Positions 2,104 to 14,926 of a DNA stretch of 64,000 nt are shown piece after piece. A program made the position numbers and the translations under genes. Position 1 is the first letter of the stretch, and each line of letters starts with the position of its first letter. The notes beneath the pieces are model-generated. The model was given only the letters and a program-made list of their open reading frames with translations. It searched no databases and was not told where the DNA came from. Source of the DNA: an uncultured Spirochaetales bacterium (GTDB lineage: Bacteria > Spirochaetota > Spirochaetia > Sphaerochaetales > Sphaerochaetaceae); contig CASEAG010000028.1 of the NCBI GenBank assembly GCA_949285785.1, forward strand, positions 165,161-229,160. The letters are read 5' to 3'.

Positions 2104-3375
2104 TCACAGCAGCCATCTGCCTGCGACGGCCTTGTGCGCGACCGGTGCCTCTGGTCTGAGGTAGGCGTAGCGCTCAAGCCGTTCCTCGACACCGAGGTTC
2201 TCGATTGTCGTCGGCAGCGTGGAGTCGTCCAGGACCACGATGTCGGCTTCATAGCCCGGGAGGAAGGTGCCCACGTCGCCGAAGAACGAACCGCCTATGA
2301 CACTGGCCATGTGGAAGGCCTCGCGGAAGCAAAGCGGCTTCATCGACTGGTCGACATGCCGCCAGTACATCTTGCTCACCTTTATGGCATCCGTGATCGA
2401 TCGCAGCAGCGAAAGCGTCGTGCCTCCGGCGACATCGCTGCCCAGCCCTATCCTGCAGCCCCTGTCTAGATAATACCGTGCACACATCAGGCCGGATGAC
2501 AGGTTGGTGTTGGAGTCGGGGCAGTGGGCGATCCAGATGTCATCATCCGCCAGCATCTCCTCCTCGTGACCCAGGGAATACACGCAGTGGGCCATGATGG
2601 TCCTGCGGCCGCCCCACAGGCCGAGAGCGCGGTATGCATCGGCATAGGAGGTCGAATCCGGGCACAGCTCCTTCACCCACTCCAGCTCGCCGAGGTTCTC
2701 CGACAGATGGCTCTGCACAGGCAGATTCCTCTCGTCGGCGATAGTGGCCAGAGCCCTGCACAGCCCGTCCGTACAGCTTGGTATGAAGCGTGGTGTGACG
2801 ACAGGTCTGACGAGAGAGCACGTAGAGGTGACCTCGTCTATGTATGCAAGGGTGTCGCGGATCGACTGCCCCGTCTCCTCGCACAGGATGTCCGGGCTGT
2901 TGCGGTCCATGTTCACCTTGCCCACGAAGCACGGAAGTCCAGCCTCCTCGAGCTTCCTGCAGAGCACCATCGTAGAATCGGCATGGATCGTGGCGAATAT
3001 GCTGGCACGGGTCGTGGGGCTCCTGAGCAGGTCATCGACGAAAATGCCGTATGCCTTTCCGGCATATGCCTCGTCGCGGTAGCGCGCCTCCTCGGGGAAC
3101 GTGTGTGTGTTCAGCCATTGTATGAGCTCCTCATCCATCCACAGACCGCGGAACTGGTACTGGCTGGCGTGCACATGCAGATCGGACAGCCCGGGGATGA
3201 CGAGCTTGCCCGAGAAGTCCTTCACATCCAGATGCGAATACCTTTCGGGAAGGCGCTGCCAGACGCCTTCAACCTTTCCGTCCACGACGACGAGCCAACC
3301 GTCCCTGACGGCCCTGGCGACGCTTGGCGATTCGGTGTAGTAGATGTCTCCTCTTGCTGCAAAAGTCCTCTCCAT
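2104..3375 (-). CDS. guaD: Guanine deaminase (amidohydrolase)
   Basis: Motifs DLHVHASQY, WLNTHTFPEE, TPRFIPSC, QSHLSEN, MAHCV, HCPDSNTNL and GLGSDVAGG. ATG at 3375 has GGAGGAG upstream. Confidence 0.9.
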   Translation of the reverse strand: MERTFAARGDIYYTESPSVARAVRDGWLVVVDGKVEGVWQRLPERYSHLDVKDFSGKLVIPGLSDLHVHASQYQFRGLWMDEELIQWLNTHTFPEEARYRDEAYAGKAYGIFVDDLLRSPTTRASIFATIHADSTMVLCRKLEEAGLPCFVGKVNMDRNSPDILCEETGQSIRDTLAYIDEVTSTCSLVRPVVTPRFIPSCTDGLCRALATIADERNLPVQSHLSENLGELEWVKELCPDSTSYADAYRALGLWGGRRTIMAHCVYSLGHEEEMLADDDIWIAHCPDSNTNLSSGLMCARYYLDRGCRIGLGSDVAGGTTLSLLRSITDAIKVSKMYWRHVDQSMKPLCFREAFHMASVIGGSFFGDVGTFLPGYEADIVVLDDSTLPTTIENLGVEERLERYAYLRPEAPVAHKAVAGRWLL

Positions 3376-3389
3376 AGGAATTCTCCTCC

Positions 3390-3457
3390 AGAGGTAGCAG
3401 GGGCTGGTATCGGAAGCCCGTAGAGACGACCACCCATCACGTGGTCCTATACCCTCT
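3390..3457 (-). ncRNA. Purine (guanine-type) riboswitch aptamer, variant
   Basis: Minus strand folds as P1 GGGUA/UACCU, J1/2 UAG, P2 GACCAC/GUGGUC with loop GUGAUGG, J2/3 GUCUCUAC, P3 GGGCU/AGCCC with a CCGAUAC loop, then CUG-C-UAC. It lies directly before the guaD RBS. Confidence 0.8.
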
Positions 3458-3460
3458 TTC

Positions 3461-3469
3461 ATGATAACA
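3461..3469 (-). promoter_or_regulatory. Extended -10 promoter for the riboswitch-guaD transcript
   Basis: TG-T-TATCAT on the minus strand places the predicted start at about 3454-3455, the 5' end of P1. The -35 element is poor. Confidence 0.5.
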
Positions 3470-3572
3470 CCGACTGGCCGATGGCGCCAGATGTCTTTTT
3501 TTCGAAGTTTCCTCTCGCCTTTTGCCGTTTCTTGTTCTAATATTTCTAGTCCAGGGGAAATTTGACAGACAG

Positions 3573-4934
3573 ATGAAGATACTTGTCCTCGGTCTTGGCA
3601 CGAACGGTGGCGGAAGAGCCGCCGCACTCCATTTCGCACATGACGAACACGCCCAGGTGCGCGTGTCCGACATGGCTCCCCGCTCATCATTCGGGGATGT
3701 GCCCGACGAGCTGGAGCGACTCGGCGTGGAATGCCACTTCTCGCACAGCGATCCGAAGGACGACATAAAGTGGGCCGATGTCGTGATCAAGAACCCTGCG
3801 GTCCCCACGTCTATGCCGCAGCTGTCCCTTGCCAGGCGGATCGCCAACGACTTCTCGTATCTGTTCAGCATGCCCTGGATCGGACGGGTGAAGCTTGTCG
3901 CGGTGACCGGGACGAAGGGGAAGACGACAACTGTCGCTGCCATACAGCATGGGCTTCAGGAGATGGGACAGGAGGCCCTGATCTGCGGGAACATCGGAAT
4001 CTCCGCATTCACCGTGATCGAGGAGGTCGACAGGAGAATCGCCGACGGCCGACCGCTGCCGAAATACATCGTCATGGAGATGTCGAGCTGGCAGATACAC
4101 GACACCTACATCGCGCTCAACGGCGTGATGCCGTCTCTGGAGCTGGCCATCTTCACCAGCAAGTATGCAGACCACCAGAACAGCTACCACAACCTCAGGG
4201 AATACTACGACGACAAGCTGAAGCTCTTCGGCCCGCAGTGCCGCATGATACTCGTCAACTCGCACAACCGGGACTTCTTCCTGAAGCATACGTTCGGCCT
4301 GAAGAAGCTGGTGCACGTATTCCCCGGCTACGGCAACCCCTTCAGGCAGACGAAGATGGAGCTGCAGTGCGCCTTCGTCGCGCTGCGCATGCTCGGCTAC
4401 GCCAGAAAGCAGGTTGCCGCAGCCCTGTCGACATACAAGGGAATGCCTCACCGCATCGAGCAGGTGGCCCTGTTCAAGGACATCATGTTCGTCAACGACT
4501 CCGCCGCCACGATAGCCGAGGCGGTGAGCTTCTCGATGAAGAACATCGCACCGCTGTCCACCCATCTGATCTGCGGAGGCACGGACAAGGACCTCAAGGC
4601 GGATGGCATGCAGGATGCGCTGCAGGCGGCATCGTCCGTGACGCTGCTCGACGGGTCGTTCACTCGTGGCCGCCTCATGCCGCTGCTCGACAGTCTCTCG
4701 ATTCCCTATCGGGGACCGTTCAGGACGATGAAGGAGGCCTTCGACGTGGCCGTGGCCGCAGCCGAGGCCAAGAGGGACGAGTTCAACCAGGTGCAGTGCG
4801 TCCTGCTCTCCCCGGGAGCCGCATCGTTCGAGCTGTTCAGGAACGAGTTCGACCGCGGCAACCAGTTCAAGGTCCTGGTCAAGACCTATGTGGCGAAGAA
4901 GAGCGGGCAGCGGAGGTTCTCGCTGAAGGACTAG
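3573..4934 (+). CDS. murD: UDP-N-acetylmuramoyl-L-alanine--D-glutamate ligase
   Basis: Motifs GLGTNGGG, AVTGTKGKTTT, EMSSWQ, PHRIE, NDSAAT and LSPGAASFELF. Confidence 0.9.
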   Translation: MKILVLGLGTNGGGRAAALHFAHDEHAQVRVSDMAPRSSFGDVPDELERLGVECHFSHSDPKDDIKWADVVIKNPAVPTSMPQLSLARRIANDFSYLFSMPWIGRVKLVAVTGTKGKTTTVAAIQHGLQEMGQEALICGNIGISAFTVIEEVDRRIADGRPLPKYIVMEMSSWQIHDTYIALNGVMPSLELAIFTSKYADHQNSYHNLREYYDDKLKLFGPQCRMILVNSHNRDFFLKHTFGLKKLVHVFPGYGNPFRQTKMELQCAFVALRMLGYARKQVAAALSTYKGMPHRIEQVALFKDIMFVNDSAATIAEAVSFSMKNIAPLSTHLICGGTDKDLKADGMQDALQAASSVTLLDGSFTRGRLMPLLDSLSIPYRGPFRTMKEAFDVAVAAAEAKRDEFNQVQCVLLSPGAASFELFRNEFDRGNQFKVLVKTYVAKKSGQRRFSLKD

Positions 4935-14031: not shown

Positions 14032-14115
14032 TGCGGTCGACTGGACTTGAACCAGCATAGCCTTTCGACCACTAGCACCTCAAGCTAGCGTGTCTACCAA
14101 TTCCACCACGACCGC
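14032..14115 (-). tRNA. tRNA-Leu(GAG)
   Basis: GCGGTCG...CGACCGC-A acceptor stem, GTGGAATTGGTAGAC D arm, anticodon loop TTGAGGT, long variable arm, GGTTCAAGTCC T arm. CCA is not encoded. Confidence 0.95.
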
Positions 14116-14853: not shown

Positions 14854-14926
14854 GGCGAGATAGCTCAGTCGGTAGAGCAAGCGGCTCATATCCGCTCGGT
14901 CGGGGGTCCGAGTCCCTCTCTCGCTA
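14854..14926 (+). tRNA. tRNA with CAT anticodon, most likely elongator tRNA-Met
   Basis: GGCGAGA/TCTCGCT acceptor stem (1:72 paired, so not initiator), anticodon arm AGCGG-CTCATAT-CCGCT, T loop TCCGAGT. Ile2 is not fully excluded. Confidence 0.9.

What the first reader, a model, noticed from the sequence alone, without database searches (positions are those of the whole stretch)
3375..3469. Variant guanine riboswitch abutting the RBS of guanine deaminase (candidate translational ON switch)
Seen: a three-way junction keeps the positions equivalent to U22, U47, U51 and C74 and the L2 GG/L3 CC kissing pairs of the xpt aptamer. It deviates with G at 24, a 6-bp P2, no C54-G72 pair, a longer J3/1 (CUG before C74, G instead of A73) and altered loop partners (L2 GUGAUGG, L3 CCGAUAC). 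An extended -10 puts the start at P1, and GGAGGAG follows P1 directly. CUUCC in P3/L3 could pair with the GGAGG RBS when ligand is absent. Known: C74 specifies guanine, variant classes bind xanthine or 2'-dG, and the add adenine riboswitch is a translational ON switch for a deaminase. Purine riboswitches are mostly reported in Firmicutes. Inference: this is a guanine-sensing analogue of add in a spirochaete, possibly a new structural variant.
Basis: partly seen in the sequence, partly recalled or inferred. Interest (0 to 1): 0.75.

Follow-up and report, generated by a model that had tools for sequence, protein, structure and literature searches.

The report
Divergent guanine riboswitch before guanine deaminase
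A real but unusually divergent guanine-type RNA switch sits at the very start of the guanine deaminase mRNA of an uncultured gut spirochaete; it probably turns the enzyme on when guanine is abundant, and standard annotation misses it because one corner of its ligand-binding junction has been rebuilt.

Summary
Rfam's Purine model aligns end to end but scores only 22.8 bits (threshold 37). It is the only hit in the 2.05 Mb genome and lies directly before a guanine-deaminase-like gene.

All non-canonical-type hits in two genera of the same spirochaete family lie before guaD-like genes. Stems covary strongly (95% of cells paired, 14 of 16 pairs with double changes).

U22, U47, U51, C74 and the GG/CC loop contacts are kept. 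The deviations cluster at one site: G24, G73 and two extra J3/1 nucleotides (CUGC instead of AC). This exact combination recurs in five species of the genus. G73 plus one extra nucleotide dominates the sister genus and still passes Rfam.

G73 and an extra nucleotide before 73 have published natural precedents, and guanine-II and xanthine-II also carry G there. G24 lies outside the published A/U consensus.

An extended -10 places the transcript start at P1. Across 29 related leaders the aptamer fold and opening of the ribosome site are coupled beyond shuffled controls, which fits an ON switch.

Ligand and direction are untested.

The parts
3461..3469 (-). Extended -10 promoter element TGtTATCAT (TG 3469-3468, hexamer TATCAT 3466-3461). 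Predicted transcription start about 3456-3453, at the first nucleotides of P1.
   Evidence: Read from the sequence. The same TGnTAnnAT element lies 6-13 nt before the P1 core in most orthologous guaD leaders, 34 of them with the TG. The generic two-hexamer scan found no promoter. No RNA data exist, so the start site is inferred.
3450..3457 (-). P1 5' strand AGAGGGUA. The conserved core is GGGUA, 3454-3450.
   Evidence: CM alignment. P1 pairs covary in relatives. Only the 5-bp core GGGUA/UACCY is shared by the five closest variants.
3447..3449 (-). J1/2: U22 A23 G24. G24 replaces the usual A or U.
   Evidence: Position 24 is 'W' in the published guanine consensus, and A24G abolishes 2-aminopurine binding in the xpt aptamer (PMC2018637).
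3428..3446 (-). P2-L2 hairpin: GACCAC / GUGAUGG / GUGGUC. The loop ends in the GG that pairs with L3.
   Evidence: All six P2 pairs show changes on both sides among relatives.
3420..3427 (-). J2/3 GUCUCUAC (G46 U47 C48 U49 C50 U51 A52 C53). It has the normal 8-nt length and keeps all pocket and base-triple nucleotides.
   Evidence: alignment. It is invariant in the five closest variants.
3401..3419 (-). P3-L3 hairpin: GGGCU / U-CCGAUAC-C / AGCCC. L3 begins with the CC that pairs with the L2 GG.
   Evidence: All five modelled P3 pairs show changes on both sides among relatives.
3397..3400 (-). J3/1 CUGC: two extra nucleotides (C3400, U3399), G at position 73 (3398) and the specificity nucleotide C74 (3397).
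   Evidence: The same C(Y)G-C occurs with G24 in four further species of the genus and CG-C with G24 in two leaders of the sister genus.
3390..3396 (-). P1 3' strand UACCUCU. In the ligand-free minimum-energy fold, CCUCU pairs instead with AGAGG of codons 2-3.
3383..3389 (-). Shine-Dalgarno GGAGGAG, starting immediately after P1.
   Evidence: Sequence. In the orthologous leaders analysed, an SD lies 0-23 nt after the model match.
2104..3375 (-). Guanine-deaminase-like amidohydrolase gene (423 aa, ATG 3375-3373, stop included).
   Evidence: TIGR02967 guanine deaminase 331.7 bits, best family but below its 375-bit cut-off. Pfam Amidohydro_1. Closest solved structure 2I9U, 369 bits, then E. coli, human and yeast guanine deaminases.

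Best explanation
This is a functional guanine-class purine riboswitch that forms the first ~65 nucleotides of the guaD (guanine-deaminase-like) mRNA.

**Shown**
- The three-way-junction aptamer is there. It is conserved before the same gene in two genera of the family and is held by compensatory changes.
- The nucleotides that contact the purine in guanine-I and guanine-II (U22, U47, U51, C74) and the two base-triple nucleotides (U49, C50) are intact.
- The deviations all lie at the stack between P3 and the pocket: G24, G73 and two inserted J3/1 nucleotides.

**Inferred**
- The ligand is guanine.
- The inserted nucleotide 5' of G73 pairs or stacks with nucleotide 24. This would add a layer under P3 like the A11.A61 layer of guanine-II.
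- Transcription starts at P1.
- Ligand binding locks the P1 3' strand (UACCUCU) into P1. Without ligand, the 5' AGGG pairs with CUCU of J2/3. CCUCU pairs with AGAGG of codons 2-3 and closes a hairpin that holds the SD (AGGA:UCCU) and the start codon. Guanine would therefore raise translation of the enzyme that removes guanine, as an ON switch.

The ON direction is well supported for the family. It is only weakly supported for this particular leader.
For: - **Rfam.** RF00167 aligns full length, is the only hit in the genome and lies on the right strand just before guaD. Orthologues score 42 bits (G018) and 33 bits (G009) on the same model.
- **Gene association.** With own models R1 and R2, 72 of 258 family genomes have a match. 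In genera g1 and g18 every match checked lies directly before a guaD-like gene.
- **Covariation.** 95.1% of cells are paired, against 36-46% when partners are slid. 14 of 16 pairs change on both sides, and 0 of 500 shuffles reach the observed values. On 67 distinct sequences 93.8% are paired.
- **Independent fold.** RNAalifold on a MAFFT alignment of the five closest variants recovers P1 and P2 with three compensatory pairs.
- **Strain variation.** Near-identical strains in four DNA metagenomes differ only at 3376 and 3473, outside the aptamer.
- **Promoter.** An extended -10 lies 6-13 nt before the P1 core in most leaders.
- **Poised energetics.** Without ligand the aptamer fold is 1-3% of the ensemble, 2.3-2.9 kcal/mol above the alternative.
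- **Family-wide ON coupling.** Opening the SD-to-+12 region costs on average 5.3 kcal/mol more in the free ensemble than with the aptamer enforced (29 leaders, none negative). Shuffled tails give 2.0 kcal/mol (Wilcoxon p = 1.6e-5, 23 of 29 above their null mean).
- **Position 24 against the nucleotide 5' of G73.** They are pairable in 24 of 35 G73-type leaders (A:U 12, G:C 4, G:U 3, U:A 3, U:G 2), against about 46% expected from base frequencies.
Against: - No binding or expression data exist, and only DNA metagenome runs hold the sequence.
- The Rfam score is below threshold.
- A24G and A73G each abolish 2-aminopurine binding in the xpt aptamer, and natural aptamers with an extra nucleotide before 73 were the weakest binders (PMC2018637). 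Affinity or specificity may therefore differ here.
- For this leader the coupling is 1.3-1.5 kcal/mol, within the shuffled null (73-78% of shuffles are as high). The SD is predicted to be no more accessible with the aptamer enforced (0.21-0.33, against 0.42-0.44 in the free ensemble). The nearest relatives G013 and G009 also show no excess coupling.
- The 24 to 72b relation has many A:A, A:C and G:A exceptions (11 of 35) and is not corrected for relatedness.
- The statistics treat related sequences as independent.
Confidence: 0.6

Rival explanations
1. Same scaffold with changed ligand preference. The rebuilt 24/J3-1 corner gives a distinct specificity. It could be a hyper-selective guanine sensor that rejects xanthine, the product of the enzyme it controls, as guanine-II does. 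Alternatively it could sense another purine derivative.
For: - G at the 73-equivalent position plus J3/1 insertions are hallmarks of guanine-II and xanthine-II, whose specificity differs from guanine-I (PMC9295807, PMC12445698).
- A24G and A73G are not tolerated in the xpt context.
- Within this family G73 occurs in 36 of 58 distinct guaD leaders and in 0 of 10 canonical terminator-type aptamers of genera g50 and g52.
Against: - All four ligand-contacting nucleotides are those of guanine-I and guanine-II.
- There is no J2/3 insertion, no U51G, no U47 deletion and no C74U.
- Orthologous leaders before the same gene run from fully canonical (A73, 55-68 bits) to this variant, which argues for one ligand.
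- Lachnoanaerobaculum guaD homologues carry a canonical J3/1.
Confidence: 0.17
2. It is a guanine-responsive OFF switch or non-switching element. With the SD starting at the nucleotide after P1, the ligand-bound aptamer hinders 30S binding. Alternatively the main effect is on mRNA stability, because ligand binding buries the 5'-terminal nucleotides in P1.
For: - There is a zero-nucleotide gap between P1 and the SD.
- In this leader the predicted SD accessibility is slightly lower with the aptamer enforced.
- There is no excess ON coupling.
- The transcript probably starts at P1.
Against: - The SD is not part of any aptamer helix and P1 cannot be extended into it (read from the sequence).
- Repressing a guanine-degrading enzyme when guanine is high makes little physiological sense.
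- 23 of 29 related leaders show ON-type coupling above their null mean.
- No terminator follows on the minus strand.
Confidence: 0.13
3. It is a decaying relic. The aptamer has drifted below function in this GC-rich lineage and guaD is expressed constitutively.
For: - The Rfam score is sub-threshold.
- L2 and L3 partner nucleotides are altered.
- The expression platform is weak or absent in this leader.
- Two guaD orthologues in other uncultured Spirochaetales (L018, L020) have no riboswitch at all.
Against: - Junction strings GGGUAUAGG, GUCUCUACGG and C(Y)GCUACC are invariant in five species whose GuaD proteins are only 60-82% identical. P2 and P3 change by compensatory substitutions.
- The aptamer is invariant among strains while flanking positions vary.
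Confidence: 0.07

Closest known systems
Guanine-I riboswitch (Rfam RF00167 Purine; B. subtilis xpt-pbuX type)
   Same: - Three-way junction.
- 8-nt J2/3 with U47, U49, C50, U51, A52 and C53.
- U22, C74 and the A21-U75 and U20-A76 closing pairs.
- L2 GG / L3 CC kissing pairs.
   Different: - It scores 22.8 bits against a gathering score of 37.
- G24 instead of A or U, G73 instead of A, and a 4-nt instead of a 2-nt J3/1.
- Inverted G54-C72.
- Altered L2/L3 positions 33, 34, 64 and 66.
- It has no terminator and abuts an SD, whereas most guanine-I examples are transcriptional OFF switches.
- It occurs in Spirochaetota.
Guanine-II riboswitch (Paenibacillus PRT; PMC9295807, structure PMC12445698)
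   Same: - Same pocket nucleotides.
- G at the position above the ligand that corresponds to A73.
- Inserted J3/1 nucleotides, one of which pairs with the nucleotide-24 equivalent (A11.A61). The analogous 24 to 72b relation is suggested here.
- ON direction.
   Different: - Guanine-II has one extra J2/3 nucleotide (A41) and three to four extra J3/1 nucleotides with two consecutive G (G62, G63). Here J2/3 is normal and only two nucleotides are inserted, with a single G.
- Guanine-II uses a terminator. Here the platform is the SD.
- Guanine-II is known only from Firmicutes.
[quoted passage not shown]
   Same: - Single features of this variant: G73 and an insertion immediately upstream of 73.
- ssnA is also an amidohydrolase of the chlorohydrolase/deaminase group.
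   Different: - Those carry one feature each, within otherwise canonical cores and with A or U at position 24.
- Here G24, G73 and a 2-nt insertion occur together and are conserved in a clade.
add adenine riboswitch of Vibrio vulnificus (translational ON switch before adenosine deaminase; from my own knowledge)
   Same: - Purine aptamer before a purine deaminase.
- No terminator.
- The P1 3' strand has an alternative partner in the translation-initiation region.
- The fold is thermodynamically poised.
   Different: - U74 and adenine there, C74 here.
- add has a spacer and a defined SD/AUG-sequestering helix. Here the SD follows P1 directly and the alternative helix (CCUCU:AGAGG plus AGGA:UCCU) is short and not better than chance in the model.

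Membership tests
Guanine-I / Rfam RF00167 Purine | Score at or above the curated gathering threshold (37 bits) | tested here: not met
   22.8 bits, E 0.33-0.53. Orthologues: G018 42 bits, G009 33.4 bits, G013 no hit at E <= 10.
Guanine-I / Rfam RF00167 Purine | Three-stem junction P1/P2/P3 supported by covariation | tested here: met
   95.1% of cells paired, 14 of 16 pairs with changes on both sides, slid controls 36-46%. 93.8% paired on 67 distinct sequences. The alignments were fitted to the model, but an independent MAFFT plus RNAalifold run recovers P1 and P2.
Guanine-I / Rfam RF00167 Purine | Pocket nucleotides U22, U47, U51 and C74, and triple nucleotides U49 and C50 | tested here: met
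   CM alignment. C74 is invariant in all 70 family matches.
Guanine-I / Rfam RF00167 Purine | Two-nucleotide J3/1 (A73 C74) and A or U at position 24 | tested here: not met
   J3/1 is CUGC and position 24 is G. The published consensus has position 24 = W and position 73 = A in 90% (PMC2018637).
Guanine-I / Rfam RF00167 Purine | L2-L3 kissing interaction (G37-C61, G38-C60) | tested here: met
   L2 ends in GG and L3 begins with CC, here and in all five closest variants. The other loop partners (33/66, 34/65) are changed, and their effect was not testable.
Guanine-I / Rfam RF00167 Purine | Selective binding of guanine | not testable with these tools
   Needs in-line probing or ITC.
Guanine-II | One inserted nucleotide in J2/3 and three to four in J3/1, with G62-G63 | tested here: not met
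   J2/3 is 8 nt, as in guanine-I. J3/1 has two insertions and one G (definition).
Xanthine-II | U51G and a two-nucleotide J2/3 insertion | tested here: not met
   U51 is kept and J2/3 is 8 nt (definition).
8-oxoguanine riboswitch | Deletion of U47; association with 8-oxoguanine deaminase | tested here: not met
   U47 is present. The gene scores 331.7 bits for guanine deaminase against 103.6 bits for 8-oxoguanine deaminase. Definition.
Adenine riboswitch | U at position 74 | tested here: not met
   C74 at 3397.
add-type translational ON switch (function, not a sequence family) | Aptamer fold and SD/start-codon sequestration are mutually exclusive | tested here: inconclusive
   For the family the feature is met (5.3 against 2.0 kcal/mol, p = 1.6e-5). 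For this leader the value is 1.3-1.5 kcal/mol, within the null, although a P1-3':codon 2-3 helix is in the free minimum-energy fold.

The most novel reading that the evidence does not exclude
The G24 + C(Y)G-C74 junction here, together with the simpler N-G-C74 junction of the sister genus, would be a distinct subclass of guanine riboswitch.

It would be a structural and evolutionary intermediate between guanine-I and guanine-II, found outside Firmicutes. An extra 24:72b layer under P3 would sharpen discrimination against xanthine and hypoxanthine. A guanine deaminase gene would then be induced by its substrate but not by its product.
Probability: 0.2. Interest if true: 0.6.

Novelty: new variant of a known kind. 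Interest (0 to 1): 0.4.

Why it matters
- **Annotation gap.** Rfam-based annotation misses real purine riboswitches in GC-rich spirochaetes.
- **Substrate-induced wiring.** A whole family of gut spirochaetes controls guanine deaminase with an aptamer fused almost directly to the ribosome-binding site. This substrate-induced arrangement is seldom described.
- **A natural series of sequences.** Within one orthologous locus the sequences run from canonical guanine-I, through G73 plus one nucleotide, to G24 plus G73 plus two nucleotides. [quoted passage not shown] It could also show which changes tune selectivity between guanine and its deamination product xanthine.
- **Limit.** If the RNA binds guanine just as guanine-I does, it is simply a divergent member of a very well known class.

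Tried and rejected
- **Other Rfam families.** A permissive scan of 3300-3600 against all 4227 families gave only RF00167. No separate 2'-dG or xanthine model won.
- **Metagenome pattern scan.** The variant signature TATAGG..TCTCTACGG..GCTAC gave 71 hits. None folds into P2 and P3, so all look like chance. The signature was not found outside the spirochaete genomes.
It has about zero pairing probability in this leader. It appears only in one length variant of the G013 leader.
- **J2/3 CUCU as a general anti-SD.** It is seen in some minimum-energy folds (L130, L133, L139), but not consistently and not here.
- **P1 3' strand as a local TIR partner.** The effect is modest (-2.7 against -1.9 kcal/mol for shuffled strands, p = 0.002). 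For this leader 16% of shuffles do as well.
- **RNA-seq for the 5' end.** Only DNA metagenome contigs hold the locus. Laying them on gave strain variants only.
- **A link between guaD and G73 in Firmicutes.** Only Lachnoanaerobaculum among 28 guaD-homologue loci has a riboswitch, and it is canonical.
- **The MFE z-score of the aptamer.** It is unremarkable (+0.84) and says nothing either way.
- **The generic sigma-70 scan.** It found no promoter. The extended -10 was read by eye and then checked across orthologues.
Full report
**What is there**

The feature is on the minus strand. Read 5' to 3':
- An extended -10 element TGtTATCAT (3469-3461).
- P1 AGAGGGUA (3457-3450).
- U22 A23 G24 (3449-3447).
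- P2-L2 GACCAC/GUGAUGG/GUGGUC (3446-3428).
- J2/3 GUCUCUAC (3427-3420).
- P3-L3 GGGCU/UCCGAUACC/AGCCC (3419-3401).
- J3/1 CUGC (3400-3397).
- P1 3' strand UACCUCU (3396-3390).
- Then at once GGAGGAG (3389-3383), and seven to nine nucleotides later ATG (3375-3373).

The ATG opens a 423-aa amidohydrolase. Its best family is TIGR02967 guanine deaminase, at 331.7 bits, under the 375-bit equivalog cut-off. Its closest solved structure is 2I9U, followed by E. coli, human and yeast guanine deaminases.

The neighbours are a divergent Mur-ligase-like gene, a CBM9-like gene, a FemAB-like gene and a ThiF-family gene. None is linked to purine metabolism, so guaD looks like a stand-alone regulated gene.

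**Is it more than chance?**

At Rfam's gathering thresholds the window yields only two tRNAs. With permissive settings RF00167 aligns over its whole length at 22.8 bits, against a threshold of 37 (E 0.33). It is the only candidate in the 2.05 Mb genome (E 0.53). That score alone proves nothing. The context settles the matter.

- The same genus holds purine riboswitches of 34-73 bits, several before guaD-like genes.
- The orthologous leader of G018 has the same odd junction and passes Rfam at 42 bits.
- GenBank records of the closest GuaD relatives carry the same element. These are uncultured Spirochaetales MAGs and Candidatus Aphodenecus pullistercoris.
- A covariance model built from this sequence and the G018 orthologue (R1), and a second built from 28 sequences (R2), found matches in 72 of 258 genomes of the family. 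The matches fall in four of 30 genera.
- In genera g1 (own) and g18, every match checked lies directly before a guaD-like gene (47-82% identical to this one, or a more distant paralogue-like form). An SD lies 0-23 nt after the match.
- In genera g50 and g52 the matches are canonical guanine-I aptamers followed by terminator-like hairpins.

Stem covariation is strong. 95.1% of cells are paired, 14 of 16 pairs change on both sides, 0 of 500 shuffles reach the observed values, and slid partners give 36-46%. A 67-sequence alignment gives the same picture. These alignments were fitted to the model. An independent MAFFT plus RNAalifold run on the five closest variants still recovers P1 and P2 with compensatory changes.

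Near-identical strains in four DNA metagenomes differ at 3376 and 3473 but nowhere in the aptamer.

**How it deviates**

The purine-contacting nucleotides (U22, U47, U51, C74), the base-triple nucleotides (U49, C50), A52, C53 and the GG/CC loop pairs are all present.

- A 6-bp P2 is the rule in this family, even in 55-68-bit members.
- P3 has its usual six layers, with an inverted G54-C72 at the base. The 'missing C54-G72' is how the Rfam model chose to place a gap.

The real deviations sit together: G24, G73 and two extra J3/1 nucleotides (C, U), plus changed L2/L3 partner positions. In guanine-I, A24 stacks between G72 and A73 (PMC2018637, PMC12445698). The changes therefore rebuild one structural corner.

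Across the family J3/1 forms a series:
- The canonical A-C is a minority among guaD leaders.
- N-G-C (G73 plus one extra nucleotide) dominates genus g18 and still scores 42-58 bits on RF00167.
- G24 with C(Y)G-C occurs in this genome and in G013, G018, G009 and G017. G24 with CG-C occurs in two g18 leaders.

**Precedents in print**

Mulhbacher and Lafontaine (PMC2018637) report the following:
- Positions 24, 48 and 73 are the least conserved core positions (24 = A/U; 73 = A in 90%).
- LM-pbuG naturally has G73.
- BH-ssnA and FN-purQ have an extra nucleotide just before 73 and bind weakly.
- A24G or A73G abolishes 2-aminopurine binding in the xpt aptamer.

Guanine-II and xanthine-II carry a G (G63) at the A73-equivalent position and three to four inserted J3/1 nucleotides. 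One of these (A61) pairs with the A24 equivalent and another (G62) pairs with the C53 equivalent. They also carry a J2/3 insertion (PMC9295807, PMC12445698).

The 8-oxoguanine class lacks U47 (PMC10556655).

The element here fits none of these definitions. It looks like an intermediate between guanine-I and guanine-II. All published variant classes are reported only from Firmicutes. I found no paper in the held library on purine riboswitches in spirochaetes.

**A possible new layer**

Among 35 G73-type leaders, nucleotide 24 and the nucleotide 5' of G73 can form a standard pair in 24 cases (A:U 12, G:C 4, G:U 3, U:A 3, U:G 2). Base frequencies predict about 46%. Eight more are A:A, the pair seen in guanine-II.

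RNAalifold also proposed C53-G73 and G54-Y pairs for the five closest variants. C53 and G73 do not vary, so that proposal cannot be tested by covariation. All of this is suggestive only, and it is not corrected for relatedness.

**Promoter and 5' end**

TGnTAnnAT lies 6-13 nt before the P1 core in most guaD leaders, 34 of them with the TG. Here the hexamer ends at 3461, which predicts a start near 3454. The aptamer is therefore the very 5' end of the mRNA, and P1 is probably only GGGUA/UACCU plus one or two pairs. No RNA data are available.

**Direction of control**

No minus-strand terminator follows, and the SD is not inside any aptamer helix. I computed the free-energy cost of opening the region from the SD to +12, in the free ensemble and with the aptamer enforced, for 29 distinct leaders.
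- The free ensemble always costs more (mean difference 5.3 kcal/mol).
- This exceeds controls with shuffled tails (2.0 kcal/mol; 23 of 29 above their null mean; p = 1.6e-5).
- In many leaders the competing fold is easy to see. The P1 3' strand pairs with the start-codon region around an inner SD hairpin (G003, G014), with the SD itself through a GGAA loop (G018), or with codons 2-3 and the start codon (G017; 5.0 against 1.5 kcal/mol).

That is the logic of the add adenine riboswitch, and it suits a substrate-induced deaminase.

For this leader the picture is weaker. With a realistic 5' end, the ligand-free minimum-energy fold keeps P2 and P3. It pairs the 5' AGGG with CUCU of J2/3, and CCUCU of P1 with AGAGG of codons 2-3, around an AGGA:UCCU hairpin that holds the SD. 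The aptamer fold is 1-3% of the ensemble, 2.3-2.9 kcal/mol higher, a gap that guanine binding could easily pay.

But the initiation region is predicted to be about as structured when the aptamer is enforced. The coupling is only 1.3-1.5 kcal/mol, no better than shuffled tails.

I therefore give:
- ON control about 55%.
- The statement 'functional guanine-class aptamer controlling guaD' about 85%.
- The combined explanation 0.6.

**Earlier notes of this scan**

One search lists guanine-type riboswitches before guanine-deaminase-like genes in Clostridia, Bacillales and an alphaproteobacterium. Most were read as ON switches. One has a 'non-canonical J3/1 fused to the SD', and one clade has G24 and G73. 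These agree with the present reading and lower its surprise. I used them as leads only. The claim of published precedents I checked myself.

**Verdict**

This is a real riboswitch, correctly spotted. It is a lineage-specific structural variant of the guanine class that standard annotation misses, with probably the usual ligand and probably an ON function.

It is worth a binding test, because it forms a natural series toward the guanine-II type junction and because it controls the enzyme that turns its ligand into a close analogue. Without such a test it remains a moderately interesting variant of a very well known RNA.

Noticed in passing
window 3474-3500 (+ strand): A terminator-like hairpin CTGGCCGATGGCGCCAG followed by a T-run lies in the divergent intergenic region. 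It sits just upstream of the guaD -10 element and about 75 nt before the Mur-ligase-like gene (ATG 3573). The G013 relative has a different hairpin (CCGC...GCGG) at the same place.
   Followed up: no
L171, L173, L175, L182, L184-L191 (genus g18 genomes, e.g. G255:C38:2698-2767): A second leader type stands before a more distant guaD-like gene (MRxIKG...). Its P1 3' strand UAUGAG(A) is repeated at the start codon (..UAUGAGA..), so the P1 5' strand can pair with either copy. This is a very clear ON design. J3/1 there varies (A, AC, CCA, ACA, CCG, CCGG, CG).
   Followed up: partly
L144/L011 (G004) and L149/L012 (G007), same genus: These guaD leaders have J3/1 UUC-C (C rather than A or G before C74) and an 11-nt L3. 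They score 34-40 bits on RF00167. This is another junction variant at the same locus.
   Followed up: no
L018 and L020 (uncultured Spirochaetales MAGs, GuaD 60-62% identical): These guaD orthologues have no detectable purine aptamer upstream (regex scan and model R2), so the riboswitch has been lost or was never gained in part of the lineage.
   Followed up: partly
window 3376 and 3473: These are the only strain-level differences seen in near-identical metagenome contigs: A>G at 3376 (U>C just before the AUG on the mRNA strand) and A>C at 3473. The aptamer itself is invariant.
   Followed up: partly
window 14032-14115 (-) and 14854-14926 (+): Two tRNA genes. They are the only Rfam matches above threshold in the window.
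   Followed up: no
L036-L048 (Lachnoanaerobaculum guaD homologues): A canonical guanine-I aptamer is followed by a small hairpin and an intrinsic terminator before a guanine-deaminase homologue. This is a transcriptional version of the same gene association in Firmicutes. I did not work out its direction.
   Followed up: no
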